Below are positions 1 to 64,000 of a stretch of 64,000 nt of DNA, piece after piece. The stretch is taken from assembly GCA_026770705.1 (NCBI GenBank), contig JANJGN010000034.1:6076001-6140000 (forward strand). Direction: 5' to 3'. Under the pieces are notes generated by a model. That model was not told the DNA's origin and searched no databases. It saw nothing but the letters and a program-made list of their open reading frames with translations. The position numbers and the translations under genes were made by a program. Origin of the DNA: Isurus oxyrinchus (taxonomy: Eukaryota). Position 1 is the first letter of the stretch. Each line of letters opens with the position of its first letter.

Positions 1-346
1 CTACTACTGTTTCTATTTTAATGTATATAACTGCGTAGAGATAGTTAACTAAATTCATGACTGAAACAGCAGCCGAGTAAGCAAAAAATGTTATCTCTGC
101 AATTAGTTACAATGATTGGCAAATTGATCTGTCATTTGAATACAACCAGATGAACTGACATAACTCTGCTCATTCCAACTGGACTGGTGGGAGAATTGTA
201 AAATTCATTGCCCATCCAAGTTGTCATTGCGGCGTTAATTTATGGACCCTTTTCTGCACAAAGCCCGATGTAATAATTTCATTTTTATCCTATTAAACAT
301 TGTGTGTCATTGGACAAAAATGTGTTCATACTTTAATTTTCCTTAG

Positions 347-373
347 AACTCTATGACCTGCAGCAAAAGTGCA
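347..373 (+). CDS. Microexon e1, copy 1 (27 nt): ELYDLQQKC
   Basis: ttttccttag|AACTC...GTGCA|gtaagt; first residue assumes an upstream exon ending in G, as in copies 2 and 3. Confidence 0.85.
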
Positions 374-3300
374 GTAAGTATTAGCTACTGCGCTGATTTA
401 CTATTTTTTTCTGCTAAGATATTTCGACTTCCTGAGCATGTATGTTTGTGCTGGTCTCCCGTTGTAATTCAGGAATCGTGGGCTAAAAATCCCCCAAGTA
501 GCATCTCCGAAACAATTTTACAAAGTTTCACATTCGGAAGTTCTTGCATTAAGTTCAAGAAGTTACTCAGTTTGCAGTCCGACATAGTTCAATGCTTTGC
601 CAAAAGTTGAAATCTTCTCCATGCAAATCCGCTGTTACTTCATGGAAACAGCTTCTGCAATTGAATCGTTTATTGTAAATCATTAAGAGATTTTCTGAGA
701 GACATGAAACATGATGTGATTTTGACGCCCCTCGTCCTTTAAATTGCAATGCTGAAGTACAGTTATTTTGCAGATACAGGGGTAGACTGGCAAGTCGCGG
801 GATTCGTCAGCTGCCTCCCACAATGCACTCGCTCAATTTGCAGTTTATTTATACTCGACGTGATTGACACTGCAGAGATTTTAGAACACGACCCTACCAA
901 AAAACGCGTCCCATTTAAATGTCGCCTCTGTGCTGGCCGTGGTTGGACAAGAATAGAAAGTGATCTGCAACTTGGTGGGGTAAATTTAGAGACGGACATT
1001 TTACATTTCTAGGCTTACATTTGCATAGCTGTATACAGATCGTAGAAAGTAGCTTCCTGCTGGTTTCATTTATCCCACCTGAACTTTTGCTTGGATATCT
1101 TGAATGTACAATTCTGACAACAAAAATAGAGTAATAGAGCCATCGGATAAAATGCAATAAGCATTAAAAGTCCTATCAGAACTGAGAAGGTTTTGAAGTT
1201 CTTAACAGTCGGCATAGTGAGTAGTATTACACTCATGACAGCGGGTGGGAAGGTGTCGTAAACTGACAATTAATATGATAGTCCGTAACAGATCAAGAAT
1301 GGGTTACATAAATGCAACTTCACTTATTGAGTGGCTCAAACATGAATTTTCTCACTGCAGGGAACAGTCGCGCCTGATAACATATACACATGTAAAGGGA
1401 GAAAGACGCACAGAAACATAAAAACCGAATTATTCATTGGGTAATTAGAGACTGGCAGAAGGAGTCTCTTCTGATTCCTTAACACTGATATCGTGGACTT
1501 GAGCTGACAGTCCTGCTTATTTAGTGTTACTAATTCTACGTAAATCTAGAACGCATCAATTGAAGAAATGTTATCCCTTTTAGCACCTTTTTGTTACTCA
1601 CACTCACTGCGATACCACCCCTTCTTACCCCAGCACACCTCTCTAAATTCAAAACTCTTCCTGGCCGGACAGGGGAGTGCCAATTGGTCCTTGCTTGATG
1701 GCCCTGCCCAAAAGTACGCATTACATGGACTGTCATAACTTGCCCTGCCGCGATTGAAATAATCTACTACTAATGAATATAACAACTCAGCCACAGTATG
1801 CACTCTAGTAGCGTCATGTGTCAATAAAAGGCCGGCGGGTGAACTATTCCTGTTACTCTTGCAGAAGCTGATCTCGACCAAAAAGATGAGGGTAAAGTAC
1901 AACATCAAACGTGCAGTATTTCGTTTCCATTGCATTTACTATTTGCCGCACGTTAGGGAAGTAGTTGAATTTAATGACAGCGGACTCAGTGTCCAGAAGA
2001 CTGACTTGTTGCCTGTGAGGTTGTTGCAACATAATTCTGGATCAGATGCCTCAGCATAAAACTTCAGCTAACACTCCGAGTGAACATGTACATGGCGATA
2101 CAGCCTATTCGAATGTTGAAACTTTCAGCTGAATTATTAAACTGCAATCGTTCAACTGCCCTCTGGCATTGTCATAAGCAGTGAAAAGCCAAAATATCCG
2201 GAATATAAAATAACATGAAATGAATTGGCCACCTGTTGTCTTAGCTCTGTATACCTCTGAGAATCATTGCAAGGAGATTGTGGGTGTAATATCACTTTCA
2301 GGTTTTTCGGAGCTTGCTCTCTGTAAAATAACTCTTGTGTTTTCTGTATTATTAGTTGAATACATTTCCAAACGTGGGCCAGGCGATGTCACATGTCCTG
2401 AAAATGTGACGGGAACCACAACAATTGTCACACACACCTGAAATGAAACAAGAATGGTTGATGTGCCAGAATGACAACAGTAATGACAACGTAATTGAGG
2501 AAAAGTCTGAGCGAACATGCTGATATTTAATTGCTTAAATGACATTCCACTTGTTTATTTTACAAAAAATCAAGAATTCGCCAAGACAATTGGAGAATTA
2601 GGTGAGTAATGGAAAACAAGATGTGGAAATATTGCTGGTTAATCGGGTTCATTCTGCAATTTTACTTGTTTTCCTCATGGCAAATGGGAGGACTTGACAA
2701 AGGTTAACAGGAAATCTAGTCCTACGTTAAGTACTTTCATGTCACTATCAATGTCAGAGAAGGGGCCAGCGGTGCAAATCATGGTGATGTCATGTAGAAG
2801 TCAGATTAACCCTGTGTGTGATCAGATATGATCAACTCGTATATGGTGAGAACAAGTATTAGTGCCAGTCAGTTTGTGTGGGAGTTCGATTTTGAGGATG
2901 TGTGGAGAGTACGGTGTTGTATATCGGTAAGCTTAGATGTGTTTGAGGGTGGGTGATACTGATCTATGTCAGAAATAATTTAGATCTGGAGTTTATCGAT
3001 GGGGCTTTGCTGAAATGAAATATGCCCTTCAACATGTGTTTGGTCAGCTCTTTCTGGGGTCAAGTTTTTTTTGGTGACTTTTATTTGAGAGCTGTCTGTG
3101 CCAAAAAGGCACTCCTTTGTTGCCTATCCTAACTGCCTTTGAAATGGCAGTCTTGCAATACATAACCACAGCCAATTACAGGTGATATGCTTCCCTGAAC
3201 TGAAAGGGCGGAATTGTTTATAAGTCCCATTACGGAGAGGAGGTTTCAATTCCTGAATAATTATTTGAATTTAAATTCGACAAACTGCCATGCTCGAAAC

Positions 3301-6300
3301 CATGTCTCAGTGCATTTCTCCAATGAGAATAAAAAATTAGCAGACGCTGTTTCAAACTAATGCATCTTCCAGTTAAGACAGAGTTTTTCCTTCACTGGGT
3401 CGTTAATACTGCACGTGCATACCGCAGTGGACAGTGCAGGCTGCGGCATTGAATAATTTATCTGCTGCAACCAGTGAGGCAATTAATTCTTATGAGGATG
3501 ATAATGATATAAAAACAAAAAAAGAACCTCTGTGGTTGGGAATCAGACATGAAACAAAAAATGTTGGTAAAACATAGCCGGTCTGGCAGCATCTGTGGAG
3601 AGAGAAAGGGGGTTAACTTTTCAGAGGCCATACAGCTCTTCTTCACTCCTGGTTATGGAGGGAATTCAGGGAAGTGGATTTATGGCACTACCAGATTAGT
3701 TATATTCTTGTGGAATTGGGGGGAAGGTTAGAGGGGCCAAATGGCCTACTTCTGCTATATTTTGTTATGTTTTTACGTTGTTACGAGCCGACATCATTAT
3801 TTGTCCTTTGTCAAAAATGCACATAGACAAAGTGTGCACCAGTTCCACTGGTTTGAGAATTTTTAATACGAGTTCCAATCACAAGAATCTCAGAGTTGTA
3901 CTCACTTATCCAGACTGCTGAAAACACTGTTTTCTTTTGGGGGGAAAAAAACAGTAAATGAAGGGTAAAGAGCTTAATGTTTACTTCTGTTAGGATAACA
4001 GTAACAGGAGCGACCCGTCAATGACCAACAGCAAATGGAAGAGAGAGTTGTAACCTTTGCTGTGGGATGTCTGATACCGAATGGCAGATCACTTTTTTTT
4101 TGCTCAGTGACATGGCATATCCTATAACTTTTCTATTGCTTTTATTCCCTTTACCGATTCACAGAAAATGTAAAGAAGGGTATGTATACGTATGTTACAG
4201 AAACTCAACTTGCCCAAAAAATCATCCCTGGTGGAATCGGCCCAAATTTCCGTCGAGTATCTTGCGTGATGTCGAATATAGAGTTATTTAAATTTTTCAC
4301 GACCATCTGTGACACCCCGCTCCCCTCTGTGTAACCTTCCACGGCTCAAAAATCATTTGACTCCACCTTATTTGCTTCCTTAATTTCCGATTTAGTATTT
4401 TCCCAGTCCACACCTCTACACATTTAGAAAATTCCCTAAAAACTGTGCCTTAGAGTGGTCAGACTTGATTCCTTTCATAACATCTCTCAACATGTTCGTT
4501 TTGGTTCTGTTACTATTTGTTCCATACCGATGTATGTTTCTGCCTTCTTCGTCGTTGTCGTTGAGTAAAAGTATATTATCCTCTTCAGCCAAATCCGTGG
4601 ATGGCTCATATTGCATTAAGGTCCCAAGGAGACTTTGCAGTGGAGCAAACATGAGCCAGGATGTGACCTCTTCCAAAAGCGTAACTTTTTAAGAGAACCT
4701 GGAAGGCTGATAAAACATACATCTAATGGACTTAAAGAGTCATGCTGTTTCTCTCCCCCTTGCAGAGCTAGGCACCTGCCAAGATAGCGTAAAAGATTTA
4801 GGTGAGCCAATCAGTTTTGATGCCTGCTAAATTTCCCGGCCGTTTGCTTTACTCTTAAATCAAGCAAAGGTACAAGTGTTTGTAAAGCACAACGGAGAAA
4901 GAATGATCCTTTAACTTTAATGCGTTTTTTTTAAAGATGGTGAACTTTAACGCAATGACAGATTTGCTCTGTATGGATAGCTGAAATGTCAATCAAAGTG
5001 CTATAGTGCAAAGCTCGGTCAGAAGTTTGGCAAGTGTCTTTATGGATTGTTCATTCTTCAAAATGTTTGACGTTGATCAAATCATGGATAAAAGATGGCC
5101 TGCGCTGTAGCACGAGTTGCTGGCTTTCAATTGACAGACTGATGTCAGGTTACGTGCGTATTCAGTTGCGCTGACTACAAGACGTTAAATATTTGCGGTG
5201 GCTATATAATCTTCACTCTCTATGACATCACACATTTTTCCTGGCTACCCAAAATTGAAATTCATCGTGTAGAGCTTGGTTAATGTGAATGGTTTACCCA
5301 TATGGTACCGATTCAGCACTCACCATCACATTTCACCAATTTTAATTGTTGTTGGCTTCAAGATAAAAAAAAGAAAAGACCTGGACCTTTTTCACGGAAA
5401 GGACAATGAAAAGAACGATTACATGACCTTAGGAATGTCGCTTAATTTACATTATTTCCTTGCTCCATGGTGTGCATTTCTCCCTGATTGCACCACTGCG
5501 AGGTAAAGAGGGAAACTTCACTATTTATTCTTGTTTGCACAATAAGAAAGGTAGCTAGTTGCCATCTAGCAGTGAATAAACGGCTGTTGTGATCTTTCCA
5601 TTCGCTGTTCCAACAAATTTTCACTGTATTCCACGTGATCAAGGAGAGTTATGTTTGCCCTGTACTGTCAGCCGCATGCAGAATGGCTTGATTTTCAGTG
5701 AAAACCTTTCCGCGGGAGGTCATGCTTTGTTCATTTTGTTATTTATTCTTGATTTTCTTCACAGATAAATTAAAAAAAGGTAAGTGGAAACATGCTCAAG
5801 CACCTCACAGTCTACATGGGTGAAAAAGAAGATAAGGAAAGATGTAATCGCTTGGATTACACATTCCAATTTAAAGTAACTTTTAAATTGTCATTATTAA
5901 ATCTAATTTCCTCTGTGGCCTCTCCCTTCCATATTGCCTTGTGAATCCTCGGGCATTACAACTGGCTGCAAGTTTTATGTTCCCAACGCACTGGCCTCTT
6001 TCTGATTGTGCTGTTCCTTTGCCTTACCAATGGCGTTTTATGCCTTCTGCAATATGTCCCAAGGCTCCAAAGCATGTTCGCTAAATCTTGCACCTCAAAC
6101 TCTCCTTCCACCTATAAAAATCACATATTTCCTGGGCGTTTTCCAAAGTCCAAGCCTCGTCCTCACCCCGGATTCTGGCCAATAATTATACTTTTTTTCA
6201 AAACATGTTGAAATGAAATGAGGTTTCTTACGCCCTGTAGCAGTTCGGTCACTAAGAAGGCCTGCTAGGAACCTTCGAAATGCTCAGCAGACGGTGAGCT

Positions 6301-9300
6301 GGCTCACATGTCCTCAGAACAAACAATGGAATACCTGGCATCTTGAACAACTCAATGGCTATTCTGGTGAACGAAGACTGCAACAGGGCCAAACCTCCAA
6401 ACGTTTCAGTTTTCTGCCATTGGACCGAGGTGTCATTCAGGCGTGGAATATGTGAGCAAAGGTCATAAACATTTGCCCAAACAAGCATCGCTCTTTCCGA
6501 GCACATCTACTATGCCATCAGGTGTCCAGTGAATGATGGACGGAGCATTGTTGTGTTGTATCAAAACGATCACTTGAAATATGCCTGCACTGCATTTGGT
6601 CAATTGAGAAAGCGAGCATTCGAAGGTTGCAACAACAAAACTGATAGGAAGCTCATGATTTGTTTTTTGTGCCTGATTTCCACGTTACTCTAATGGGCTG
6701 CAATACGCAAAACGTACAGGAGAAAGATCAGGGCACTAGGTTCATACCATTAAAAGTGGCTGCGAAAGAAATTGCATCTTATTGGGAGCGCAGACAGGCG
6801 GACACTGTCAGCTGCCATGTAGCAGACTCCCAAAGCAGTTATTGTTCTGCAAGAGGAGCGAGAGCAGTCGCACCAGATGAGGGCAGAGGACGCTCTTAAG
6901 GGATGTGCTGAAAAGCAACATGAAGAAAATTAATTATTCACATGGATATCTTGGTGAACACCATTTATAGATTAAAACAAACGGCACTAGGCCCTATTGT
7001 AAGGATCCCAGCATTTTGAACACAACCAATTATAGAATGATTCGGAAAAGCAGGAGGGCCCAAAGGAAAACAGCATGACTCGAATTAATGATACACGACC
7101 TGACACATAACAACGCTTGGTTGCATGATGTCTGCAGTCACGAATCTGCTTTATCAGCCATCTTATTGAAGAGAATCGTCCTCCTGCTGAGGCGTAGCCA
7201 GTAATAACAATATCTCTAAGCAATTAATCACTTGTCCCAAAGTGGCCAAATGTTGCATTTTATCTACACTGTTTGCGTGGAAACAATTTTGGTCTTTTCC
7301 TGGATTAAGTCAGTATATATTTGCTAATTGCACGTTCCTGTCAACAGTACCTACGATCTAAACCCGCAAAGTTTCTGCCGACAACACTGAGGAAAAGTTG
7401 CTCATAGGATGACTACTTGCGGGTTCTAACAGTAAAGTTAACCATGTAGGAGAAAACCATGTTTCCCAAAGAGAAATTAAACATTTGTAACATAATCAAA
7501 GATTATGGCTTGTCGTAGATTGGTTACAGCACAGAAAGAGGACATCGGGACCTTCGCATCAGAGGTGGAAGTTTGGGTGAAAATCTCGGCTGTTCCCATG
7601 CTCCAGACCTTCAGGCCAACACAAGCAACGATAATGCTATTCAAATAACTACACACCTCCCTATTAAAATCCACGATTGTCCCTTCACAGAGCTCATTCT
7701 TACACACTGCTTTTAAGAACCTAATGATGCGCTGCACATTTACATTTCCCATTGTCCCCATTGGTTCTCTTTCAATTGACGTTAAATCAATATCTTCCAG
7801 TTCTTGACCATTCCAAATGGGAACATTTTATCGCTGCCAAACATGTCAAGGCCCCAGTGGTGAATTTGAGAAGCCCCATCATATCTCCTTTCAATCAAGT
7901 TGTATTTCTGTGGAACTGCGCTAAATTCTCCAAACTTTCCTCCTAGAGGAAACAATCATCTCTGGAAGGATTCCCATGAATACACTTTCTACTCTCTCTA
8001 ACGTCTTCACTTCTCCCTAAACTATGATGTCCAATATGTGATGCAATTACCTAGTGAAGTCGAACTAATGGTTAAACAGGTTTACCATATTCATCTATTT
8101 ATAAAGATGAGGATTTCATCTGGCTAACTGACAGCATTTTCAATCTGCCCTGCATCTTGCAACCATTTGTCCTCTTATACTCCCAAAGCCCCATCAGCAG
8201 CTTCAATCCCCTTTGGAATGTTATCACAAGTTGTTCATTACCTCCTACTACCAAAATAAATCACGTCATACCTCTCTCTATTAACTTGACCTGCAATAGT
8301 TCCTCCAGTTCCACCCTTCCATCTGCGTCCATTTCATGTATTTCACCATCTTCCATGCAATTCTTAGCCCTGTAAAATCTGAAAACTGAAAATCTGAAAG
8401 TTTTGCCCTGGATATTCATGTTTAGGTCCTTGATGCATACCATGTACATTGATTGGAAGTGGGAAACTACGTAGTTTTTGTCGACACTTAAGTGCGGATC
8501 ATCCATTTTATGAATTACAGAGCTAAGCGACTGTCAACAAGCTGTAAAAGACCTAGGTGAGCAAAACATTCCCGATGTCGCTTTCAATAACATGCCTTAT
8601 TATTTTGAATCATTAAAGAAATACGTTTATAATCTTTAAAAATTGAAGTCATCAAGTCAGGCACCTTTAGGCCCATATTCGCTTCTGTTGATTTCAATAA
8701 AAGAAAATACCGGGCAGAAAGCAAAACAAGCCGACCATCCGATTGTGGGCAGGATGAATTTCCGATGCTCCATGAATCATGATTATTGGCGCTTTTTGTC
8801 AAGACTTTCTGCAATCCTGCACACTAACGGAATGATGAATATTGTTAACTTCATCGATTTTGTACCACTTTGGCAAATTGTTCTAACCAATAACGAAGCG
8901 TCTCCTACTCGTGAAAAATGTTGCTTAATCTTAAAATTTTTGGTTTGTTTATCATGTAATCCCAAACAGAAGAAAAACTCATTGCAAAAGAGAAAGGTAC
9001 CTGATCTGACATATTTTTTCTTCAAAAAGCCATAGATTGACAATGGCTGATTGCTTCTTCACATGATATCTTTTGTTTTCCTATGAATGTTTTATGTTAT
9101 TTTTTTGCTACGCAGATTGCTACAATGTAACCTAAGGGTTGGCAGCAGAAGATTCCCTTACAAGGGTTCCATAGTTTGAAGTTACAAGGGCACATCTTTG
9201 GATGCTGTGTCACACAAAGTTGGAAGACAATAAATAACTTGTGAACTTATTATGTGAATAAGGAATTGAGTTAATGCTCCAGCAAAAGGATAGTGGCACC

Positions 9301-12300: not shown

Positions 12301-14268
12301 TGAATGGCGTGCGAGCTTTAAGTAATGCTGTCTAGCAAAAACTGTACAGTTCATGCACTAAATAACAAATCAGACTGATAATTCTTATGGAATATTATAT
12401 CAGCATATAGAAGTTATTTAAATAACATCGAACCGCGCACAAACATAATCCCTAATTAAAGAAAGCCGCTACGAATTACACCGAACCATTTTCAGGTTAA
12501 CACGGATTTTAAGGTCTCCAACGAAGAAAATTCACGAATGAAACCATGCCAATGTCTCTTGTAAAAAGCAGAAGTACGGCACCAATAAAATACAGGTAAT
12601 GGAGCCGAGTCATATAATTCCAGCTGCATTCGTCTATTCAAGCTCATTCTCTAACAGCAGTGTAGGTTCCAGAAACGATTGTTAAGAGGATTAACGGGCC
12701 AGTTTGATTGTTTTCGGGGAATGTCGGGATACAAAATGGAGCTCTTCTATAATCTGGACGAGGAGGTGCAACTGTTAACCTTGACAATGCCTGATCCTTA
12801 TAACCAGTTGCTTTCTTTCTGTCTTAGAATTGAATGACATTCAGCAGAAGTGCAGTGAGTATTCCATGAGCCAGCAGCCAGCAACGTGTGGATTTCCTGA
12901 TTGATTATAAAGCCTGTACTGCGGAAAGAACTTATCCGTGCTTGCGGGATAAAATGTAATCGATTGAATGCATTAAAGCACATCCCCAAGGTACGAGGAG
13001 AAAATGTCTAAAAGGAAATTGCGGTGTTACCTTCTTCCCTAAAGCTGCACCGAATTTTTGTCCTCGCAGCTAGCTGTGACGCAGCAGACAGAACTTCCGA
13101 CCTCTGATCAGAAGGTTGCGAATTCAAGTCCAGAGTTAGAAGTCGAGCGCAGGCGCAGATGCTGACACGCCTGTGCAGTCCTCATGCAGCAATGTATTGC
13201 AGGAAGTATTGTGTAGCCTTTAGTCCAGAGAACCAGGCGAGGTCTGCCCTCGAACTAGGACGTAAATGACCCAATGCCACATTTGAAAGAAACGAAGGGA
13301 AGTTTTCAACCGATGTCCTGGTGCATACTTACCCCTTAATTAAACCTCACATAAAAAGGCTTCTTCGGAAGTCTTGGGGTCCTTGGAGGATCGGGCGGAA
13401 AAAAAGTATCTTTGCCGAAACAGTTCATTCAGAGTGGTCATTATATCACCAGCTTTAGGTTGGCAGATCGTTCGGACCGACACTTGACAGATGACGTCTA
13501 ACGCAGAAAATTGCGATCACATCATTTTGGTGGGAAGGACGAGGTGAGGCAATGCAAGAGAAAGCCTCACAATCTAATTGGGTTTCAGAGTATTTATCGC
13601 TGGATGTCAAATGACCAGTGTGACAAGGCAAGTTGAATGGGCGGTAAAAATGCAAAACCGCTCCCCAAACTTTTAAAGAGTGTCATATAGCACAAATACA
13701 TGTGGGTTACAATAACTGTATAAAATGCTGGGCGGGCCTCAGCCAGAGAATTGTTTCCAATTCTGGACAACATTCTCCGGGAAAATGTGTAGGCATTATA
13801 GAGAATGCAAAAGTATATTTTAAAATTAATTCCGGGGATGAGGTGCTGCACTTACGTGGGCAGTTTGGAAAGGTGTTCTTCACCTTGTTGATCAGAATAT
13901 TAAGCAAGTATCCCAAAGGTGAACGTAATCATTAGGATCCAGGAGAGAGTCAACACGGGAGAGTTGCTCCGTTGGCAGGAACGGTCGAAAATCAGTGGTG
14001 ACCGAGTTAAGGTAATTGACATCATAAACAGTGGTGCCATGAGGGAGATATTTTCTTTTCCAGCGAGTGCTTACACTGCTAACGGTGTCGTGGAGGAATG
14101 TTCTATAGATGTTTTCAACAGAGTATTCAATATTCATGTCAAGAAGAGAGTTACTTCGGAGGAGTGTTGCTTGGAACAGCGGGACAGTGGGATGAAAAAA
14201 AAATTAATAGAGAGATCCGGCATTGGCTCGATGTGTCGAATGGTCTTTCTGACTATCTGTCTGGCTCC

Positions 14269-14310
<42 letters not shown>

Positions 14311-44022: not shown

Positions 44023-44063
<41 letters not shown>

Positions 44064-56000: not shown

Positions 56001-59000
56001 AATTGTTTGTAATTTCCATATTCAAGAAAGGGCCAAAACATCTTCTTGTAATTATCTTCTTAAAATATGGGCTGGAAAATAATGGAATAGCTATTCAATA
56101 ATGTAATAGAAGAACAACTATCATGGTTAATAAGATTCACACACGCAGACACACAGAGAAACCCATATAACATGCCCATACATATGTGTGAACACATGGG
56201 TGGAAATAATGGCGGTGCAGTGTCCAGTTTTTCAAATGCTCTTGAATAAGCTTTTCCAGTGTGCATCAATGAATTAGATGCGATAATGTGGAGTCAGGAG
56301 ACAAGAGACGGGATGGAATGCTTCACTGGCTTCAAGTTGTAAAACAGAGACTGAGAGTAAAGGTGGGTTACTCAGAGTGGCAGAAGGTGAACGTGGTTCT
56401 GCACAATGATTTTTGCTGCCTCTATTGCTATTTAGTATTCCTTTTAACAACTTTGATTGTGGAGTCAGAAACTCCATTTGTAAATTTGTGGCGTTCAGTA
56501 AAATGGGGAGAATGTCAAAACAGAGGTGCATTACAACAAATTGATGAAGACATTGTTAAGCTTCGAGAAAGGCCGAACAATTGAAAATGAAGTCGAATAC
56601 AGATTTGTGTAAGGCATTACGTTTTGATAGGAAGTAAACTTGTTTTTTGTTCTGAAACGTGAACGTCTAGCCAAGATTCAGGAAATTAGGGGTCCCGGTC
56701 TACAAAAGCAGCAATCCCTAAAAGATTCGTCGCTGGTGAGAAAGTTCACAAAAACAGAACAAACACGATACTTAGTTTCTGCAGGGATGTAATTTCAGGT
56801 GCTGAAATACATCGGGAATTCCGCAAAAACTCGTCTTTACCGAAATGAATAGCATTGACGCATTCATGGGGAAGCTACATAAACATATCAGAGAAGATGA
56901 TAGTGGCTTCCAATGATAAATTTAGGAGAGGAAATATAGAAGGAATTTCAAGTGAAGCTTTAGCGCTTGATGGACTGAGATATCTCTTTCTGTGTTGTAC
57001 ATCCTAATCATAACTGCAGTAAATTAAATAACCTAATTCATATTTAAACAAGGCAGATGAATCTACTACTGTTTCTATATGTAATGTATATAACTGTGTA
57101 GAGTTAGGTAAATAAATTAATGACTGAAATTGCAGCTCGGCAAACAAAGAAAGTTATCTCTGCAAAAAGTTAAAATTGTTGGCAATTTGTTCCGTAATTT
57201 GAATAAAACCAGATGAACTGACATAATCCTACTCTTTCCAACGGGACTGCTGGGAGAATTGAAAAATACATCGCCCATCTAATGTGTCATTGCAGCGCTA
57301 ATTTATAGAGCCTTTCTGCACAAAGCCCGATGTAATTATTTCACTTTTATCCAGTTAAACATTGTGTTATGTCGGAAAAAAATGTCTTCATGTTTTACTT
57401 TTCCTTAGAGCTCTATGACCTACAGCAAAAGTGCAGTAAGTATTGGCTCCTGCGGTGATTTATTATTTATTTCTGCCGAGTTATTTCAACTTCCTGAGCA
57501 TGTATTTTTGTGCTGGCCTCCCGTTGTAATTCTGGAATCGTGGGCTAAAAATCCCCCAAGAACCATCTCCGAAGCAATTGTACCAAGTTTCACTTTCGGA
57601 AGTTCTTGCACTGAGTTCAAGATGTTACTCGGTTTACAGATCGACAGAGGCCAATGCTTTGCCAAAAGTTGAAATCTTCTCCGTTCAAATCCGCTGTTAC
57701 ATCATCGAAACAGCTGCTGTAATTGAAACATTTACTGTAAATCTCCAAGAGATTTTATGAGAGATGTTAAACATGCTGTGCAATTGAATCCCGTCTTCCT
57801 TTAAATTGGAATGCTGAAGTACAGTTGTTTTGCAGATACAGGGGTTCAGTGGCAAGATGCTGGATTCCTCCCCCGCCTCCCACGATGCACTTGCTCAACT
57901 TGCAGATTATTTATACTCGACGTGATTGAACCTGCAGACATTTTAGACGACTAACCTACAACAAACACGTCCCATTTAAATGAGAACTCTGTGTTGGCCC
58001 TTGCAGGACAAGCATAGAAAGGGATCAGTGACTTGGCGGGTTAAATTTGGAGATGGAGATTTAATTTTTGAAGACGTACATTTGCATTGCCGTATAAATA
58101 GGAAGGCAGATCGTAAAAAGCAGATTCCTGCTTATTTCATTTATCCCACCTGACCTATTGCAAGGATGTCTTGAATGTACACTTCTGGTGACATAAATAG
58201 AGTAACAGAGCTATCGGAGAAAATGCAATAAGCATTAAAATTCCTATCAGAACTGAAACGGTTTTGATGTTCTTACGAGTCGGCATAGTGAATATTATTG
58301 CACTCATGGTATTGGATGAGAAGGGGCGTAAACAGTGAATGTATATGATAGTCCGTAACAGATCAAATATGGGTTACATAAATGCACCTTCACTTATTGA
58401 GTGGCTCAAACATGAATTTTCTCATTGCAGGCAACAGTCGTGCCTGATAACATACACACATGTAAAGGGAGAATGACGCACAGAAACATATAAACCAAAT
58501 TATTCATAGGGATAGAGACTGGCAGAAGGATGCTCATCTGATACCTTAACACTGATATTGTGGAATTGAACTGACCGTCCTGCTTATTTATTGTTACTAA
58601 TTCCACGTAACTCTAGAACCAAAAAAAGCAGAAATGTTATCCCTTTTAGCAACGTTTTGTCACTCCCACTCACTCCGACACAACCGCCCATCACCCCAAC
58701 CCTCCTCCCTTAACCCTAATGTGGTCCTGGACACAAGTCTCTTCAGGGCCTGAAAGAGGAGTGCCAATTGCTCCATGCTTAAAGGTCCTGCCCAAAAATA
58801 CGCATTACTTGGACTTTCATAACTCACCCTGCAGCGATTGAAATCATCTTCTACTAATGAATATAACAACTCAGCCACAGTATGCGCTCCACTAGTGTCT
58901 GTAACAGGCCAATGGTTTAACTATTCATGTAATTCTTACAGAAGCTGATCTCGACCAAAAAGAAGAGGGTAACGTACAATCATCAAACGTGCTGTATTTC

Positions 59001-62000
59001 GTTTCAATTGTATTTCCTATTGGCCGCATGTAAGGGAAATAGTTGCACTTAATGACAGTGGACACAGTGTCCAGAACACTCACTTGTTACTTGGGAGGTT
59101 GTTGCAACCTAGTTCTGCATATGAGGCCTCAGCATGAAACTTCTGCTACCACTCCGCGTGAATGTTTACATGGCTATACTGCCCAGTCAAATATTGAAAC
59201 TTTCAGGTGAAGTATTAAACTGTAATCATTCAACTATACTATAGCATTGCTATAAGCAGCGGACTGCCAATATATCCCCAAAATAAAATAACTGTGTCTT
59301 AGCACTGTGTTCCTCGGAAGAACCATTGCAAGGAAATTATCGGTATAATATCGCTTTCAGTCTTTTCGGAGCTCGCTCTGTGTAAAATAACTTGCATTTT
59401 CTGTATTATTAGCTGGAATGCATTTCCAAATGTGGGTCAGGCAAAGTTGCATGTCCTGAGAATGTGACGGGCACCACAACAATTGTCACACACACCTGAA
59501 ATGAAGCAAGAATGGTTGATGTGCCAGCATGCCAACAGTAATGACAACGTAACTGAGGCGACTTCTGAGGGGAAATAGTGATATTTGATTGCTAAAATGA
59601 CATTCCACTTGTTTATTTTGCAAAATTGACAGAGTTCGCAAAGAAAATTGGAGAACTAGGTGAGTAATGGAAAAAAAGATGTGAAAACATTGCTTGTTTT
59701 TGGGGTTCACTTGAAATTTTGCTTGCTTTCCTCATGGCAAATGGAATGTTTAGACAAAGGTTAATAGGAAACCAAGTCCAACGTTAAGTACCTTCATGTC
59801 ACAATCAATATCAGAGAAAGGGCCAGCGGTTCCAATCCTGGCGATGTCAGATTAACCCGTTGTGAGATCAGATATTATCAACTCGTGTATGCTGAGAACA
59901 AGTCTTAGTGCCACTCGGTTTGTGTGGGAGGTCTGTTTTGAGGATGGGTGGAGAGTGCGGTGTTATCCCTTGATAATCTTAGATTTGTTTGATTGTGAGT
60001 GCTACTGATCTAAGTCAGAAATAAATTATATCTGTTTGTGATCGATCGGGCTTTGCTGAAATGTAATATGCTTTTCAACATGTGTGTGTGGTCAGCTCTT
60101 TCCGGGGTTAAGTTTTATTTTGATTACTTTCTCATGAGATGTGGGCGTGGCGCCTAAAAGTCCCTTCTTTCTTGCCTATCCTAATTGCTTTTGAAATGGC
60201 CCTCTTGCAATACATAAACATTGCCAATTAGAGGAGATATGCTTCCCTGAACTGAAACGGCAGAATTGATTCTATGTCCCATTGCCTGGAGGAGCTTTCA
60301 ATTCCTGATTAATTAATTGAACTTAAATTCTACAAACTGCCATGCTTGAACCCATGTCTCAGAGCTTAGCTCGAAGGAGAATCAAAATTTAGCAGACGCA
60401 CTTTCAAAATAATGTATCTTCCAGTAAAGACAGAGTTTTTCTTTCACTGAATCGTTAATACTGCAAGTCAATACTGCAGGGGACAGTGCAGGCTGTGGCA
60501 TCTTAACCTACGAGGCAATTAATTCCTATGGGGATGATAATGAAGTAAAAACAAAAAAGAACTGCTGAGGTTGGGAATCAGACATGAAACAGAAAATGCT
60601 GGTAAAACATAGCCGGTCTGGGAGCATCTGTGGAGAGAGAAAGGGGGGCTAAGTTTTGAATCCATACGGCTCTTTTTCACAGCTAGTTATGGTGTTAATT
60701 CAGGGAAGGGGATTTAAGGCACAACCAGATTAGTTATATTCTTGTGGAATGAAGGGGAAGATTAGAGGGGCCAAAAGGCCTAATTCTGCTATATTTTCTT
60801 ATGTTTTTACGTTGTTAAGGAGTGACATCACCATTTGTCCTTTGTCAAAAATACACCTCGACAAAATCTGTACCAGCTCCATTGGATTGATAATTATGAA
60901 TACCTAGTTCCAATCACAAGAATCTCAGTGTTTTACTCGCTTATCCAGACTGCTGAAAACACTGTATTATTCAGGGTGAACAAAGCACAGTACATGAAGA
61001 GTAAAGACCTTAAACTTTACTTTTGTTAGGATAACAATAATAGGAGCGACCAGTCATTGATCAACAGTAAAAGGAATAGAGAGTTGTAAAGTTTGCTTTG
61101 GGATGTCTGATACCGAATTGCAGATCACTTTTTTATGCTGAGTGACATTGCACATCTGATAACTTTTCTATTGCTTATAATTCTTTTACCGATTCACAGA
61201 AAATATAAACAAGAGTAAGTATACGTATGTTACAGAAACTCAACTTTAATGCAAGATAAATAGCTTGCCCTAAAATTTCATCCCTTTTGGAATCGGGCCA
61301 ATATCCCGTCGAGTATCTTGCCTGATGTCGAATATAGTGTTATTTCCATTTTTCACGTCCCTTTGTGACATCCCCCTTCCCCATCTGTGTAACATTCCAG
61401 AGCTCAAAAATCTTTTTTAATCCACGTAATTTGCTTCCCAAATTTCCGATTTGGCATTTTCCCAGTCCCCACCTCTACACGTTTAAGACACACCCTTAGA
61501 ACTGTGCCTCAGAGTGGTCAGTCTTGAAACTTTTCATAATATTTCTCAACCTGTTGCTGTGGTTCTGTTACTATTTGATCGAAACTGATGTATGTTTCTG
61601 CCTTCTTCGTTGTTATCTGTAAAAGTATATTATCCTCTTCAGCCAAATCCGAGGAAGGCTCATATCGCGTGAAGGCCCCCAGGAGACTTTGGAGTCGAGT
61701 AAACATGAGCCAGGATGTGACCTCTTCCAAAAGCGTAGCTTTTTAAGGGAACCTGGATGTCTGATAAAACACACACCTGATGGACTTAAAGATTCATATT
61801 GCTTCTGTCCATCTTGCAGAGTTAGGCACCTGCCAAGATACCATAAAAGATTTAGGTGAGCCAATCAGTTTTGATGTCTGCTGAATTTCCAGACCGTTTG
61901 TTTAATTCTTAAATCAAGCAAAGCTCCAAGTGTTTCTACAGCACAACGAGAAAGAACGATCCTGGAGCATTAATGTTTTTTTTTTAAATATGTTGAACTT

Positions 62001-62827
62001 TAAAGCAATGACAGATTTGTTGTGTATGGGGAGTAGAAATGTCAATCATTGTTTTTGTGCAAAGCTCGGTCAGAAGCTTGGCAATTGACTTTATGGATTT
62101 TTCATTGTTCAGAATGATTAACGTAGATCATCTCTTGGATAAAAAATGGCCTGCGTTGGAGCACCAGTTGCTGGCATTCAATAAACTGACTTATGTAGGG
62201 TCACGTGTGTATTCAGTTGCACTGACTACAATGGAATTACGTACTTGCGCTGGGTATATAATCTTCCCTCTCTACGAAATCGCACATTTTGCGTGGCTAC
62301 CACAAATTGAAATTCATCGTGCAGAGCCTGGTTAATGTGAATGGTTGATGTATATGATATGGAATCAGCACTCGCCGTCACATTTTGCCAGTTTCAATTG
62401 TTGTTGGCTTTAAGATAAAAAAAAAGACCTTGATCCTTTTCATGGAAAGGTTGATCAAAAGAACGATTATGTAATCTTAGGAATGTGGCTTCATTTACGT
62501 TATCTCCTTGCTTCATGTTGTTCTTTTCCCGCCGATAGCGCCACTGCAAAGTGAAGAGGAAAACTTCACCATTCATTCTTGTTTGCGCAAAAAGAAAGGT
62601 AGCAGGTTGCCAGCTAGCAGCGAATAAATGGCTGTTGTAAACTTTCCATGAGCTGTTCCACACATTTTCAGTGTGTTCCACGTGCACAAGGAGATTTACG
62701 TTTGCTCTGCACTGTCGGCCAACTGCAGAACAGTTTGATTTTCAGTGAAATCTTTTCTGCGGTAGGTCAAGCATTCGTTCATTTTGTTATTTATTCTTGA
62801 TTTGTTTCACAGAGAAATTAAAAAAAG
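347..62827 (+). CDS. Interior of a large multi-microexon gene encoding a long Cys-containing coiled coil (34 exons, 927 coding nt, ~309 aa in window; both ends outside the window)
   Basis: 34 AG/GT-flanked segments of 15/27/36 nt, all phase 1-1, that join into an uninterrupted frame with a heptad pattern. Lengths and splice dinucleotides are conserved in all copies, while the flanks carry many indels. Confidence 0.85.
1865..1891 (+). CDS. Microexon e2, copy 1 (27 nt): KADLDQKDE
   Basis: ctcttgcag|AAGCT...TGAGG|gtaaag; only synonymous changes versus copy 2. Confidence 0.85.
2575..2601 (+). CDS. Microexon e3, copy 1 (27 nt; possibly ancestrally 36 nt from 2566): EFAKTIGEL
   Basis: caag|AATTC...ATTAG|gtgagt; acceptor position ambiguous. 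Confidence 0.7.
   Translation, partial: NSPRQLEN
3085..3330 (-). mobile_element. Degenerate tRNA-derived SINE with LINE-like tail (also ~32610-32850 and ~60135-60370)
   Basis: ttgcctatcctaactgcctttgaa ... ttgaatttaaattcgacaaactgccatgctcgaaaccatgtctcagtgcatt resembles the reverse complement of a common elasmobranch SINE (recalled). Confidence 0.5.
3380..3785 (+). mobile_element. CR1-type LINE 3' end, interrupted by a probable Penelope-like terminal fragment (~3510-3650); shared by all three copies
   Basis: gaggggccaaatggcctacttctgctatattttgttatgt is a CR1-type tail; ggtctggcagcatctgtggagagagaaag is a motif of a common shark repeat. Confidence 0.6.
4165..4179 (+). CDS. Microexon e4, copy 1 (15 nt): ENVKK
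   Basis: ttcacag|AAAATGTAAAGAAGG|gtatgt. Confidence 0.8.
4766..4801 (+). CDS. Microexon e5, copy 1 (36 nt): ELGTCQDSVKDL
   Basis: ctcccccttgcag|AGCTA...TTTAG|gtgagc. Confidence 0.9.
5765..5779 (+). CDS. Microexon e6, copy 1 (15 nt): DKLKK
   Basis: ttttcttcacag|ATAAATTAAAAAAAG|gtaagt. Confidence 0.85.
6500..7200 (+). mobile_element. Decayed RTE-clade LINE ORF2 C-terminal remnant (also ~36100-36760 and ~63600-64000)
   Basis: Copy 3 translates to AFGQLRKRAFE...KLMICYLGLIPTLL, matching the RTE post-RT pattern AFGRLRKRVF...TKL.VY...TLLY; frameshifted. Confidence 0.7.
7640..8450 (-). mobile_element. Decayed CR1 LINE fragment (also ~37270-38050)
   Basis: Copy 2 minus frame gives VKTLERVESVFMRMFPEI, similar to CR1 ALERVQRRFTRMIPG. 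Confidence 0.7.
8521..8556 (+). CDS. Microexon e7, copy 1 (36 nt): ELSDCQQAVKDL
   Basis: ttacag|AGCTA...CCTAG|gtgagc; paralog of e5. Confidence 0.85.
8970..8996 (+). CDS. Microexon e8, copy 1 (27 nt): EEKLIAKEK
   Basis: aaacag|AAGAA...GAAAG|gtacct. Confidence 0.8.
9385..9670 (+). mobile_element. Degenerate tRNA-headed SINE with RTE-like tail (also ~38995-39280)
   Basis: gccagaagctctgcattcaagtc is a B-box-like head; gaaagcaacctcaaatgactgccgtaatttgccaag resembles the RTE-related gaaggcaatggcaaaccactccagtattcttgcc motif. Confidence 0.45.
10556..10591 (+). CDS. Microexon e9, copy 1 (36 nt): EILTCHVSLKDS
   Basis: cattccag|AGATT...TTCAG|gtggga; paralog of e5/e7. Confidence 0.8.
11600..11626 (+). 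CDS. Microexon e10, copy 1 (27 nt): ETKLKGKEK
   Basis: ccttgacag|AAACA...AAAAG|gtagcc. Confidence 0.8.
12828..12854 (+). CDS. Microexon e11, copy 1 (27 nt): ELNDIQQKC
   Basis: ctttctgtcttag|AATTG...GTGCA|gtgagt; paralog of e1. Confidence 0.88.
13070..13360 (+). mobile_element. SacSINE1/DeuSINE-like SINE, 5' and central part (also ~42725-42990)
   Basis: cctctgatcagaaggttgcgaattcaagtcc...gctgacac...gtgcagtcctca...gatgtcctgg...ttaccccttaa follows the recalled SacSINE1 order of motifs. Confidence 0.6.
13880..14260 (+). mobile_element. CR1 LINE 3' end (also ~43520-43910)
   Basis: gttaaggtaattg...atgagggagata...cagcgagtg...gagagatccggcattggctcgatgtgtcgaatggtct matches the CR1 3' region. Confidence 0.65.
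14268..14590. repeat. Compound microsatellite (CT)n plus (GATA)n; the copy 2 equivalent at ~43918-44180 has (CT)n, (CTAT)n, (AT)n and (GATA)n
   Basis: Direct reading. Confidence 0.95.
15680..18345 (+). mobile_element. Decayed long CR1-group non-LTR retrotransposon (RT region, 3' tail with A-run)
   Basis: ORF 17094-17480 carries NYRPISIL...QLGFR...LDIKVEFGRFFH...KLESMGMRGRTLRW, i.e. RT motifs; many stops and frameshifts; ends gggatgggcaataaatg...aaaaaaaa. Confidence 0.9.
19575..19950 (+). mobile_element. SacSINE1/DeuSINE-like SINE body and 3' tail abutting exon e12 (also ~47735-48118)
   Basis: ttgcctgtgggagcc...tgtgtgaactggctgc...gctgcaaagcattctt...gtcatgacaggcgctgtcgaaacgcaaatttt resembles the Deu-domain and tail. 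Confidence 0.6.
19959..19985 (+). CDS. Microexon e12, copy 1 (27 nt): TEDLWDKDS
   Basis: tctctcttgcag|CAGAA...TTCAG|gtaaac; paralog of e2. Confidence 0.85.
20020..20190 (+). mobile_element. SINE 5' fragment with tRNA-like head (also ~48190-48360)
   Basis: tggctcagccggtaacactc...gtttcaa...ggctgacact...aagatgttaaa. Confidence 0.5.
20588..20623 (+). CDS. Microexon e13, copy 1 (36 nt): EINNLQTKVQKC
   Basis: cttcttttcag|AAATA...ATGCG|gtgagt. Confidence 0.88.
22474..22500 (+). CDS. Microexon e14, copy 1 (27 nt): EENLKAIEK
   Basis: ccttcgacag|AAGAG...AAAAG|gtactg; identical in copy 2. Confidence 0.85.
23250..23640 (-). mobile_element. L2-type LINE 3' end (also ~51360-51745)
   Basis: acaacttccacatatatagcacc ... 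gaggccatcgacggatttgtaacaa resembles the reverse complement of an L2 3' tail. Confidence 0.55.
24340..25500 (-). mobile_element. Two adjacent CR1 LINE 3' fragments (also ~52460-53560)
   Basis: Copy 2 ORF 52961-53245 AHLECHGHYWPSY...NALETLKRRSTRPIPGIVGLSYDGRLDRIDLYSI matches the CR1 ORF2 C-terminus. Confidence 0.8.
26900..29460 (+). mobile_element. Heavily decayed CR1 LINE with a nested minus-strand CR1 tail (~27940-28230); also ~54480-57010
   Basis: Copy 2 ORF 56288-56584 WLQVVKQRLRVKVGYSEWQKV resembles CR1 RT WL..RKQRV...YS.WQKV.SGVPQG; aattataggccagccatcat resembles NYRPVSL. Confidence 0.7.
29855..29881 (+). CDS. Microexon e1, copy 2: EFYDLQQKC
   Basis: ttttccttag|...|gtaagt, 27 nt. Confidence 0.85.
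31403..31429 (+). CDS. Microexon e2, copy 2: KADLDQKDE
   Basis: ctcttgcag|...|gtaaag, 27 nt. Confidence 0.85.
32115..32141 (+). CDS. Microexon e3, copy 2: EFTRKIAEL
   Basis: ctag|...|gtgagt, 27 nt. Confidence 0.7.
   Translation, partial: NSPGKLQN
33696..33710 (+). CDS. Microexon e4, copy 2: ENVKK
   Basis: ttcacag|...|gtatgt, 15 nt. Confidence 0.8.
34323..34358 (+). CDS. Microexon e5, copy 2: ELGTCQNTVKDL
   Basis: ccttgcag|...|gtgagc, 36 nt. Confidence 0.9.
35306..35320 (+). CDS. Microexon e6, copy 2: DKVKK
   Basis: tttcacag|...|gtaagt, 15 nt. Confidence 0.85.
38129..38164 (+). CDS. Microexon e7, copy 2: ELSNCQLSVKDL
   Basis: ttacag|...|gtgagc, 36 nt. Confidence 0.85.
38585..38611 (+). 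CDS. Microexon e8, copy 2: EEKLNAKEK
   Basis: gaacag|...|gtacct, 27 nt. Confidence 0.8.
40166..40201 (+). CDS. Microexon e9, copy 2: EILTCQVYLKDA
   Basis: attttag|...|gtggga, 36 nt; AG retained despite an indel just upstream. Confidence 0.8.
41204..41230 (+). CDS. Microexon e10, copy 2: ETKLKDKEK
   Basis: ccttcacag|...|gtagcc, 27 nt. Confidence 0.8.
42456..42482 (+). CDS. Microexon e11, copy 2: ELNDIDQKY
   Basis: ctgtcttag|...|gtgagt, 27 nt. Confidence 0.88.
45270..46520 (+). mobile_element. Same LINE in copy 2, lacking the RT region
   Basis: Colinear with 15680-16705, then jumps to ~18107 at ~46284. Confidence 0.85.
48126..48152 (+). CDS. Microexon e12, copy 2: KIDLWDKDS
   Basis: ctctcttgcag|...|gtaaac, 27 nt. 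Confidence 0.85.
48753..48788 (+). CDS. Microexon e13, copy 2: EINYLQIKLQKC
   Basis: cattttcag|...|gtgagt, 36 nt. Confidence 0.88.
50574..50600 (+). CDS. Microexon e14, copy 2: EENLKAIEK
   Basis: ccttcgacag|...|gtactg, 27 nt. Confidence 0.85.
57409..57435 (+). CDS. Microexon e1, copy 3: ELYDLQQKC
   Basis: ttttccttag|...|gtaagt, 27 nt. Confidence 0.85.
58942..58968 (+). CDS. Microexon e2, copy 3: KADLDQKEE
   Basis: ttcttacag|...|gtaacg, 27 nt. Confidence 0.82.
59633..59659 (+). CDS. Microexon e3, copy 3: EFAKKIGEL
   Basis: ttgacag|...|gtgagt, 27 nt. Confidence 0.72.
   Translation, partial: SSQRKLEN
61200..61214 (+). CDS. Microexon e4, copy 3: ENINK
   Basis: ttcacag|AAAATATAAACAAGA|gtaagt, 15 nt. 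Confidence 0.8.
61820..61855 (+). CDS. Microexon e5, copy 3: KLGTCQDTIKDL
   Basis: atcttgcag|...|gtgagc, 36 nt. Confidence 0.88.
62813..62827 (+). CDS. Microexon e6, copy 3: EKLKK
   Basis: tttcacag|...|gtaagt, 15 nt. Confidence 0.85.
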
Positions 62828-64000
62828 GTAAGTGGAAATATGCTCGAGCAACTGAACGCGTAAATGGGTGAAAAGAAACATGAGAAAAGATGGATTCGCA
62901 GTGATTACACATTCCAATTTAAAGTAACTTTTAAATTGTCATTGTTATATGTTAATCCCTCTATGGCCTCGATCTTCCATATTGCCTTGAGAATCCTCTG
63001 GCCTTACAATTGGCTGCAAGTTTTGTGTTCCCACCACGCTGGCCTCTTTCTGATCGCGCTGTTCCTTCACCTTACCAATGGCGACTTTCGGCTTCTGCAA
63101 TATGTCCCAAAACTCTGAATTATGTTTGCTAAATCTTGCACCTCATACTCTACTTCGTCCTTTAATATTCATATATTTGCTCTGTGGTTTCCAAAGTCCA
63201 TTCCTCGTCCTCACCCCGGATTCTGGCCAACAATTAAAGTTTTGTTCAAAACATGGTGAAATGCAGTGTGGTTCGTAACGCCCTGTGGCACTTCTGTTAT
63301 TGGGACGGCCTGCTAGGAACCTTAGAAATACTCAGTGGACGATGCGCTGGCTTACATGTCCTCAGAACAAACAGGGAAATACATGGCATCTGCAGCAACA
63401 CAATGGCTCTTCTGGCCAACAAAACTGCAATTGAACCAAACCTCCAAACGTTTTAGTTTCCTGCCATTGGACCGAGGTGTCGTTCTCTAAAGACAGGCGT
63501 GGAAGGTGGTGTGAAACGGTGTCTGCATCCTAACATTTTGCCCACACGGGCATCTTTCTTTCTGAGTACATCTACCATGACATCAGGTGTCCAGCGAATG
63601 ATGGAGGGCACATTGTTGTGTTGTATCAAAACGATCACTTGACGTATGCTTGCACTGCATTTGGTCAATTGAGAAAGCGAGCATTTGAAATTCGCAACAC
63701 CAAAACTGACAGGAAACTCATGATCTGTTATTTGGGCCTGATTCCCACCTTACTCTGCAAGGCCGAATCTTCAAGATTTAAAAGGTGCAGGAGGCACCTA
63801 AGGCACTTGGTTCATACAATTAAAAGTGGCTGCAAAATAAATTGCATATAAGTGGGAGGGCAGAGATGCGGACAATGTCAGCTCTCATTTATCAAACTCC
63901 CAAAATAGTTATTGTTCTCCAAGAGGACAGACGCACCAGAGGAGGGCGGAGGACGATCTTAAGGGATGAGCTGAAAAGCAACATGAAGAAAATGAATTAT

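What the first reader, a model, noticed from the sequence alone, without database searches (positions are those of the whole stretch)
1..64000. ~28-kb tandem duplication appears to be intragenic, adding a 14-exon, 130-aa module per copy
Seen: e1 recurs at 347, 29855 and 57409 (periods 29508 and 27554). e14 of one copy joins e1 of the next in frame and in pattern (EENLKAIEK|EFYDLQQKC). The ~7-kb interval between them is mostly TE debris, with no recognisable start, signal, TM, globular or terminal exon. Inference: these are not tandem genes but one gene lengthening its rod by 130 aa per 28 kb (roughly 19 nm at ~0.15 nm per residue), possibly with copy-number variation.
Basis: partly seen in the sequence, partly recalled or inferred. 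Interest (0 to 1): 0.78.

Follow-up and report, generated by a model that had tools for sequence, protein, structure and literature searches.

The report
Triplicated microexon block in coiled-coil gene
This stretch is the middle of one very large, apparently unannotated vertebrate gene whose tiny exons spell a long cysteine-studded helical rod, and an old internal duplication repeated a 14-exon block at least three times; the copying mechanism is familiar, but the gene itself is not identified.

Summary
The window lies inside a tandem array: two whole units plus the start of a third, 82-85% identical. There are 14 phase-1 microexons (15/27/36 nt, 130 aa) per unit. All 34 exons keep AG/GT, frame and length, while introns diverge 17%; 0 of 20,000 neutral simulations do this. 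The product is a proline-free heptad rod (period 3.51) built from alternating A/B exon pairs, with all 13 cysteines at core positions. One gene is the best reading (about 0.8): no exon has an in-frame ATG, no intron holds a conserved first, domain or extra exon, and the register runs through e14|e1. No transcript confirms it; RNA contigs covered only repeats. Two corrections: the array runs off both window ends, so the unit boundary is unseen and need not lie in intron 14; and live copy-number variation is unlikely (equidistant copies, longest identity 48 bp). No protein relative was found. It works like the nebulin/CR1 internal repeats, with a chicken BG-like exon design; family membership is untested. 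The scan earlier noted similar giant microexon rods in two other (shark) genomes, unchecked here.

The parts
1..29510 (+). Repeat unit 1 as framed by the window (true boundary not visible)
29511..57062 (+). Repeat unit 2
57063..64000 (+). Repeat unit 3, cut by the window end
347..373 (+). copy 1 e1, A-type, 27 nt, Cys at heptad a
1865..1891 (+). copy 1 e2, B-type, 27 nt
2575..2601 (+). copy 1 e3, A-type, 27 nt, weak acceptor
4165..4179 (+). copy 1 e4, B-type, 15 nt
4766..4801 (+). copy 1 e5, A-type, 36 nt, Cys at d
5765..5779 (+). copy 1 e6, B-type, 15 nt
8521..8556 (+). copy 1 e7, A-type, 36 nt, Cys at d; older paralogue of e5
8970..8996 (+). copy 1 e8, B-type, 27 nt
10556..10591 (+). copy 1 e9, A-type, 36 nt, Cys at d
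11600..11626 (+). copy 1 e10, B-type, 27 nt
12828..12854 (+). copy 1 e11, A-type, 27 nt, Cys at a; older paralogue of e1
19959..19985 (+). copy 1 e12, B-type, 27 nt
20588..20623 (+). copy 1 e13, A-type, 36 nt, Cys at d
22474..22500 (+). copy 1 e14, B-type, 27 nt
22501..29854 (+). Intron 14 of copy 1 (7354 nt): 82.3% identical to its paralogue like every other intron; no conserved exon, CpG island or Pfam domain; multi-copy repeats at about 24208-26783
29855..29881 (+). copy 2 e1
31403..31429 (+). copy 2 e2
32115..32141 (+). copy 2 e3
33696..33710 (+). copy 2 e4
34323..34358 (+). copy 2 e5
35306..35320 (+). copy 2 e6
38129..38164 (+). copy 2 e7
38585..38611 (+). copy 2 e8
40166..40201 (+). copy 2 e9
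41204..41230 (+). copy 2 e10
42456..42482 (+). copy 2 e11 (Cys replaced by Tyr)
48126..48152 (+). copy 2 e12
48753..48788 (+). copy 2 e13
50574..50600 (+). copy 2 e14
50601..57408 (+). Intron 14 of copy 2 (6808 nt)
57409..57435 (+). copy 3 e1
58942..58968 (+). copy 3 e2
59633..59659 (+). copy 3 e3
61200..61214 (+). copy 3 e4
61820..61855 (+). copy 3 e5
62813..62827 (+). copy 3 e6

Best explanation
The window is the interior of one large + strand gene. Its coding part here is a chain of symmetric phase-1 microexons that come in pairs: an A exon carrying the hydrophobic and cysteine core positions, then a Lys/Glu-rich B exon. Ancient duplication of such pairs built a 14-exon block (shown in part: e1~e11 and e5~e7 still align). 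That block, with all its introns, was then copied head-to-tail at least twice in a short interval and has diverged about 17% since, with purifying selection on every copy (shown). Spliced in order, each block adds 130 residues, about 19 nm, to one continuous coiled coil (inferred). Function, inferred: the rod is a spacer or tether in a parallel homo-oligomer. I put about 0.5 on an extracellular or luminal stalk cross-linked by inter-chain disulfides, about 0.3 on a BG/butyrophilin-type cytoplasmic tail, and about 0.2 on a soluble structural filament. The ends of the protein that decide this lie outside the window.
For: Selection on all copies: splice dinucleotides 56 of 56 and donor +3..+6 56 of 56 identical against 82.6% intron identity; dN/dS 0.31-0.53; 0 of 20,000 neutral simulations; 36 of 37 hydrophobic residues stay hydrophobic. 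Rod: period 3.51, 0 of 500 shuffles reach it, no proline in 308 aa. Pair lengths 18, 14, 17, 21, 21, 18, 21 are all 0, 3 or 4 mod 7; e14 is B-type and e1 A-type; all 13 Cys fall on a or d positions of A exons (read). No unit can start itself: no in-frame ATG in 34 exons; loose first-exon candidates number 4 on + against 5 on the control strand. No conserved AG..GT exon in intron 14 and only 2 implausible ones in all 14 introns. The longest frame open in both copies is 59 codons in intron 14 (+) and 78 in any intron, too short for an Ig or B30.2 exon. No Pfam family at its cut-off in 123 + and 119 - fragments of both intron-14 copies, or in 150 of 165 + fragments of copy-1 introns 1-13. No CpG-island-like window.
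Against: No transcript or annotated protein shows the e14-e1 join or any exon-exon join. The conserved-exon scan would have caught only 10 of the 14 known exons at its thresholds, so a small, weak exon could be missed. A non-coding first exon or a short last exon leaves little trace. A TM-like hydrophobic 19-mer occurs in both copies of intron 14 (24441 and 52584) downstream of a conserved acceptor at 24375, although it is out of phase with e14 and sits in multi-copy repeat. dN/dS of 0.53 over the full module is only moderate constraint. The function and compartment are inference only.
Confidence: 0.8

Rival explanations
1. Tandem paralogous genes, one per unit, as in the chicken BG cluster. 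Each would have its own short first and last exon hidden in one of the introns.
For: BG genes with microexon tails do occur as tandem arrays (PMC4046983, passages and section 8 part 2). Introns 11 and 14 are large enough (5.6-7.4 kb). Conserved acceptors followed by a quick stop exist, for example at 1361 and 24375, and 8 AATAAA/ATTAAA hexamers are shared in intron 14.
Against: Each gene would need a conserved coding first exon with a phase-1 donor, because the microexons have no ATG. None passes strict thresholds and loose candidates are no commoner than on the opposite strand. Intron 14 identity is flat at 0.76-0.87 in aligned 250-nt bins. No Ig-sized open frame or domain exists in any intron.
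Confidence: 0.1
2. One gene, but the copies or the A/B pairs are alternative cassettes, so the rod's length is set by splicing and not every copy is in every mRNA.
For: Every exon is frame-neutral, and every A+B pair length keeps a hydrophobic stripe. Several B donors and two A acceptors are weak. BG tails are shortened by alternative splicing (PMC5938342, passages and section 12 part 2).
Against: No RNA evidence either way. Register-compatible pair lengths are equally expected from growth by pair duplication. All copies show the same constraint.
Confidence: 0.25
3. The array is a dead or dying duplicate (pseudogene), or an assembly artefact.
For: No RNA holder was listed and no protein relative was found.
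Against: All 34 exons are intact after about 0.2 substitutions per site. Copies differ by 15-17% with a natural spectrum, CpG transitions being about 2-3.5 times non-CpG ones, which is not allelic duplication. Only a very recent loss of function would be invisible.
Confidence: 0.04
4. The block is a live copy-number-variable unit, expanding and contracting by unequal crossing-over.
For: Head-to-tail arrangement; human precedents NEB and CR1 do vary.
Against: NEB blocks are 99% identical (PMC12402328 passage). These are 82-85% identical, equidistant (386/370/340 private changes, p=0.22), with a longest exact match of 48 bp. That is well below the few hundred bp usually needed for homologous exchange (recalled). 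Younger, more similar units outside the window are not excluded.
Confidence: 0.1

Closest known systems
Chicken BG genes (butyrophilin family; PMC4046983, PMC5938342)
   Same: A coiled coil encoded by a long run of tiny exons with split first codons (phase 1); the number of exons varies by duplication.
   Different: BG exons are 21 nt (a few 18 or 24), one heptad each, 13-36 per gene, with a single noted tail cysteine, in tandem genes with Ig-V and TM exons. Here exons are 15/27/36 nt, work as A/B pairs, carry a core cysteine every 17-28 residues (one gap of 46), span more than 64 kb, and no Ig or TM exon is in view.
Nebulin triplicate region (NEB exons 82-105; PMC12402328)
   Same: A multi-exon block with its introns repeated three times inside one gene, each copy adding a fixed length to an elongated protein.
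   Different: NEB blocks are 10 kb, 8 exons, 99% identical and copy-number variable. These are 28 kb, 14 microexons, 82-85% identical, old and equidistant, and encode a coiled coil, not actin-binding repeats.
Complement receptor 1 long homologous repeats (PMC8702080)
   Same: Internal duplication lengthens one protein by whole modules.
   Different: CR1 modules are seven globular SCR domains with allelic copy number; here the module is plain rod.
Tetherin/PLVAP-type disulfide-linked coiled-coil ectodomains (recalled, no paper read)
   Same: Cysteines in a coiled coil, suited to inter-chain disulfides.
   Different: Those are much shorter and, as I recall, not built from symmetric microexons. 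No sequence link was shown.
Schistosoma micro-exon genes (MEGs; search listing and abstract starts only)
   Same: Genes made of many very short exons between long introns.
   Different: Unrelated lineage; the abstracts describe secreted, variable, in part disordered proteins, not a heptad rod.

Membership tests
BG / butyrophilin family | Extracellular Ig-V (and Ig-C) exon | not testable with these tools
   None inside the window; the gene's 5' end lies outside and no genome is held.
BG / butyrophilin family | Single TM exon before the heptad exons | not testable with these tools
   No in-phase TM exon in the window; the 5' end is outside.
BG / butyrophilin family | Heptad repeats on phase-1 microexons | tested here: met
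   34 phase-1 exons, period 3.51.
BG / butyrophilin family | 21-nt, one-heptad exons as in BG | tested here: not met
   Lengths are 15, 27 and 36 nt; 0 of 34 are 21 nt.
BG / butyrophilin family | Terminal B30.2 exon (butyrophilins) | not testable with these tools
   None in the window; the 3' end is outside.
Intragenic multi-exon tandem duplication (NEB TRI, CR1 LHR type) | Head-to-tail copies of an exon block with its introns, in frame | tested here: met
Intragenic multi-exon tandem duplication (NEB TRI, CR1 LHR type) | One transcript runs through the copies | tested here: inconclusive
   RNA-labelled contigs of 4 runs covered only repeats; sequence tests favour it.
Intragenic multi-exon tandem duplication (NEB TRI, CR1 LHR type) | Near-identical copies that vary in number among individuals | tested here: not met
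   Identity 82-85%, longest exact match 48 bp. Population depth itself was not measured.
Tetherin/PLVAP-like TM-coiled-coil proteins | N-terminal TM segment, with a C-terminal GPI signal in tetherin | not testable with these tools
   Both ends lie outside the window; features recalled; the paper sought was not held.

The most novel reading that the evidence does not exclude
An undescribed gene family of cartilaginous fishes encodes a disulfide-stitched coiled coil many hundreds of residues long, assembled hierarchically from two-exon A/B units whose lengths (0, 3 or 4 mod 7) let any pair be added or skipped without breaking frame or helical stripe. It would act as a splice-tunable molecular ruler or tether, possibly with a stop-bearing alternative exon (1361 and its paralogues) that truncates the rod once per module.
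Probability: 0.25. Interest if true: 0.75.

Novelty: new variant of a known kind. Interest (0 to 1): 0.5.

Why it matters
It points to a large, strongly conserved vertebrate gene that seems to be missing from protein collections, probably because only about 1.4% of the locus is coding and comes in 15-36-nt pieces. It extends the BG-type microexon coiled-coil design to paired exons with core cysteines, and shows two tiers of duplication (exon pairs, then a 14-exon block) preserved in one locus. The duplication mechanism itself is ordinary. The value lies in identifying the gene, and the diverged paralogous copies give a built-in test for finding further hidden exons.

Tried and rejected
Whole genome: none held, so flanks and unit count stay unknown. 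RNA: no RNA holder was listed; 5 runs came by species label with next to no shared words. Four of the 5 were laid on 19700-39000; they covered only repeats and showed no exon piece or exon joint among the rows shown. This is no verdict on expression. Protein relatives: a profile of nine exon-centred window stretches gave 0 hits among 1007 word candidates and 4 hits among 1.84 billion representatives. All 4 are unrelated repeat proteins. As a control, that profile scores one module at 45-49 bits, and a copy-1-only profile scores copy 2 at 36 bits, so a close relative should have shown; distant ones could be missed. The whole spliced product was not searched or folded, which leaves the family open. 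ESM Atlas with a 22-residue piece gave only unnamed clusters under 0.9. One degenerate e5 pattern found nothing in metagenome contigs. Rfam: 0. Two LINE-like frames found no relatives in protein or PDB searches and 14 long ORFs had no Pfam hit, so transposon identity and taxon are not tool-confirmed. A locus-trained splice model found 11 further + candidates: 5 are alternative acceptors of known exons and 6 are listed in one copy only. Weak Pfam hits below cut-off (PF04248 at 26285, 22.0 against 22.1 bits; others E 0.003-0.05) did not recur in the paralogous intron where that was scanned and were rejected. Conserved + strand cryptic acceptors are fewer than - strand ones (17 against 43), but A/T skew confounds this, so I did not use it. 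Literature: 10 searches listed no paper describing this gene; the library lacks most subscription journals and I read no supplements.

Full report
Observation. Self-BLAST of the window returns four long direct matches at 80-83% identity: 1-6937 to 57063-64000, 3-16708 to 29514-46287, 18104-25445 to 46281-53554 and 25979-36500 to 53575-64000. Mapping candidate exons between the copies gives 14 exons in copy 1, 14 in copy 2 and 6 in copy 3, at the coordinates listed under parts. Lengths are 27, 27, 27, 15, 36, 15, 36, 27, 36, 27, 27, 27, 36 and 27 nt, 390 in all. All 34 have AG and GT. Read in order in phase 1 they give 308 residues with no stop, no proline and no methionine.

The exons are real and selected in every copy. 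Introns of copies 1 and 2 are 82.6% identical over 26,689 columns with 7.8 gaps per kb; exons are 90.8% identical with no gaps. The AG/GT dinucleotides match at 56 of 56 positions and donor +3..+6 at 56 of 56; against copy 3 the counts are 24 of 24 and 22 of 24. dN/dS is 0.53 over the module and 0.31-0.32 over the first six exons. Non-synonymous differences (25 of 316 sites) are below the intron rate (p=9e-7); synonymous ones (10 of 71) are not. In 20,000 neutral simulations none kept all 14 splice pairs. The substitution spectrum is natural, with raised CpG transitions, so this is not a false duplication of alleles.

Anatomy. Hydrophobic residues repeat with period 3.51, and 0 of 500 shuffles reach that power. 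Odd exons (A) begin with a split codon, usually Glu, then a large hydrophobic residue, and hold all 13 cysteines; even exons (B) are Lys/Glu-rich. A+B pairs are 18, 14, 17, 21, 21, 18 and 21 residues, all 0, 3 or 4 mod 7, which are the lengths a coiled coil absorbs as heptads, stammers and stutters (established knowledge, recalled). Reading the register by hand, each cysteine sits at a or d, and the e13-e14-e1 run keeps the 3-4 pattern. e1 and e11, and e5 and e7, still align at the DNA level, so the block was itself built from older duplications. At about 0.15 nm per residue (recalled) a module is about 19 nm and the window's share about 46 nm.

One gene or several. Both ends of the window still align to the other copies at 81-85%, so the array's ends are not in view and the numbering e1-e14 is set by the window. 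A gene boundary could therefore lie in any intron, and I tested all 14. No exon has an in-frame ATG, so separate genes would each need a conserved coding first exon. None passes strict thresholds; with loose ones there are 4 candidates on + and 5 on the control strand, 2 of the 4 in intron 14 at background identity and without signal-peptide character. A scan for AG..GT exons up to 600 nt shared by both copies gave 2 implausible candidates and none in intron 14; its thresholds would recover 10 of the 14 known exons. The longest frame open in both copies is 59 codons on + in intron 14 and 78 anywhere. Pfam found nothing at cut-off in 123 + and 119 - fragments of both intron-14 copies or in 150 of 165 + fragments of copy-1 introns 1-13; the 15 left out were from introns 2, 4, 7 and 12. 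There is no CpG-island-like window. Against this reading: a TM-like 19-mer recurs at 24441 and 52584 after a conserved acceptor at 24375, but the phase-1 reading from that acceptor stops after 8 poorly conserved residues in both copies, and the region is multi-copy repeat. A non-coding first exon cannot be excluded by sequence.

RNA. No RNA holder was listed. Contigs of 4 of the 5 offered runs, laid on 19700-39000, covered repeats only. This neither supports nor refutes the join.

Age and copy number. In introns 1-5 the private changes number 386, 370 and 340, compatible with a star (p=0.22). K2P distance between copies 1 and 2 is 0.198 and the longest exact match is 48 bp. The block was copied at least twice in a short interval long ago and shows no recent exchange. 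Nebulin's variable triplicate is 99% identical (PMC12402328, passages). Present-day copy-number variation of these three units is therefore unlikely. I did not calibrate the age; if the host is a shark, mutation rates are very low (PMC10587355, passages) and the event is old.

Identity. The base composition (about 40% GC), weak CpG depletion (0.57) and LINE-like remnants suggest a cartilaginous fish; this is recalled pattern-matching and no call confirms it. A profile of exon-centred stretches found no relative by word search and only 4 unrelated repeat proteins among 1.84 billion representatives, although the control shows that one module would score 36-49 bits. Two earlier notes of this scan describe giant arrays of 27- and 36-nt coiled-coil exons over more than 300 kb in other, shark, genomes. 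They are unchecked AI notes; sequence look-ups linked none of them to this window, so orthology is untested.

How it most likely works. Shown: an old head-to-tail multiplication of a 14-exon block, with every exon kept under selection. Inferred: one transcript splices through the copies (0.8) and yields a long parallel coiled coil. Inferred more weakly: the regular core cysteines, 5 of 6 kept between copies 1 and 2, favour an extracellular or luminal disulfide-linked stalk (about 0.5) over a BG-type cytoplasmic tail (about 0.3) or a soluble filament (about 0.2). The lack of N-glycosylation sequons says little at this length.

Comparison. It works like nebulin's triplicate and the CR1 long homologous repeats (PMC12402328 and PMC8702080, passages) in growing by whole exon blocks. 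It resembles chicken BG tails in using phase-1 microexons for a coiled coil (PMC4046983, passages and section 8 part 2; PMC5938342, passages and section 12 part 2). Butyrophilins are reported in cartilaginous fishes (PMC12841164, passages). It is not shown to be a BG or butyrophilin gene: the 21-nt exon feature is not met and the Ig, TM and B30.2 exons cannot be tested. Ten literature searches listed no description of this gene; subscription papers and supplements were not seen.

Verdict. Observation confirmed; single-gene reading favoured but not shown by RNA; copy-number variation unlikely; unit boundary unknown. The mechanism is known and the gene appears undescribed: a new variant of a known kind, interest 0.5.

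Noticed in passing
window 1361-1391 and the paralogous sites in intron 1 of copies 2 and 3: An acceptor followed in phase 1 by four codons and a double stop (TGA TAA), with a GTAAAG 31 nt on, is kept in all three copies. Its 80-nt window is the most invariant in introns 1-5 (0.91), but only at the 95th percentile of shuffled maxima. It may be an alternative last or poison exon.
   Followed up: partly
window 15470-18340: A long LINE-like remnant in intron 11 (recalled motifs, no database hit). Copy 2 lacks 1403 nt from its middle (16708-18110), which reads as a deletion in copy 2 because the element seems continuous in copy 1.
   Followed up: partly
introns, copies 1 versus 2: Transitions are fewer than transversions (2079 against 2564) and CpG transitions are only about 2-3.5 times non-CpG ones, a low transition bias for a vertebrate.
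   Followed up: no
window 14015-14215 and 19228-19428: The best-conserved intron stretches between copies 1 and 2 (91-92% over 200 nt, with the longest exact match of 48 bp at 19258) look like retroelement tails by recall; marginal against chance.
   Followed up: partly
window 19959-19964: Copy-1 e12 has a tandem CAGCAG acceptor allowing a 24-nt form; copy 2 lacks it.
   Followed up: no
window 14270-14589 and 43990-44189: TC and ATAG microsatellites at paralogous places in intron 11, differing in form between copies.
   Followed up: no
window 25448-25978: Two copy-1-only blocks of 289 and 224 nt in intron 14.
   Followed up: no
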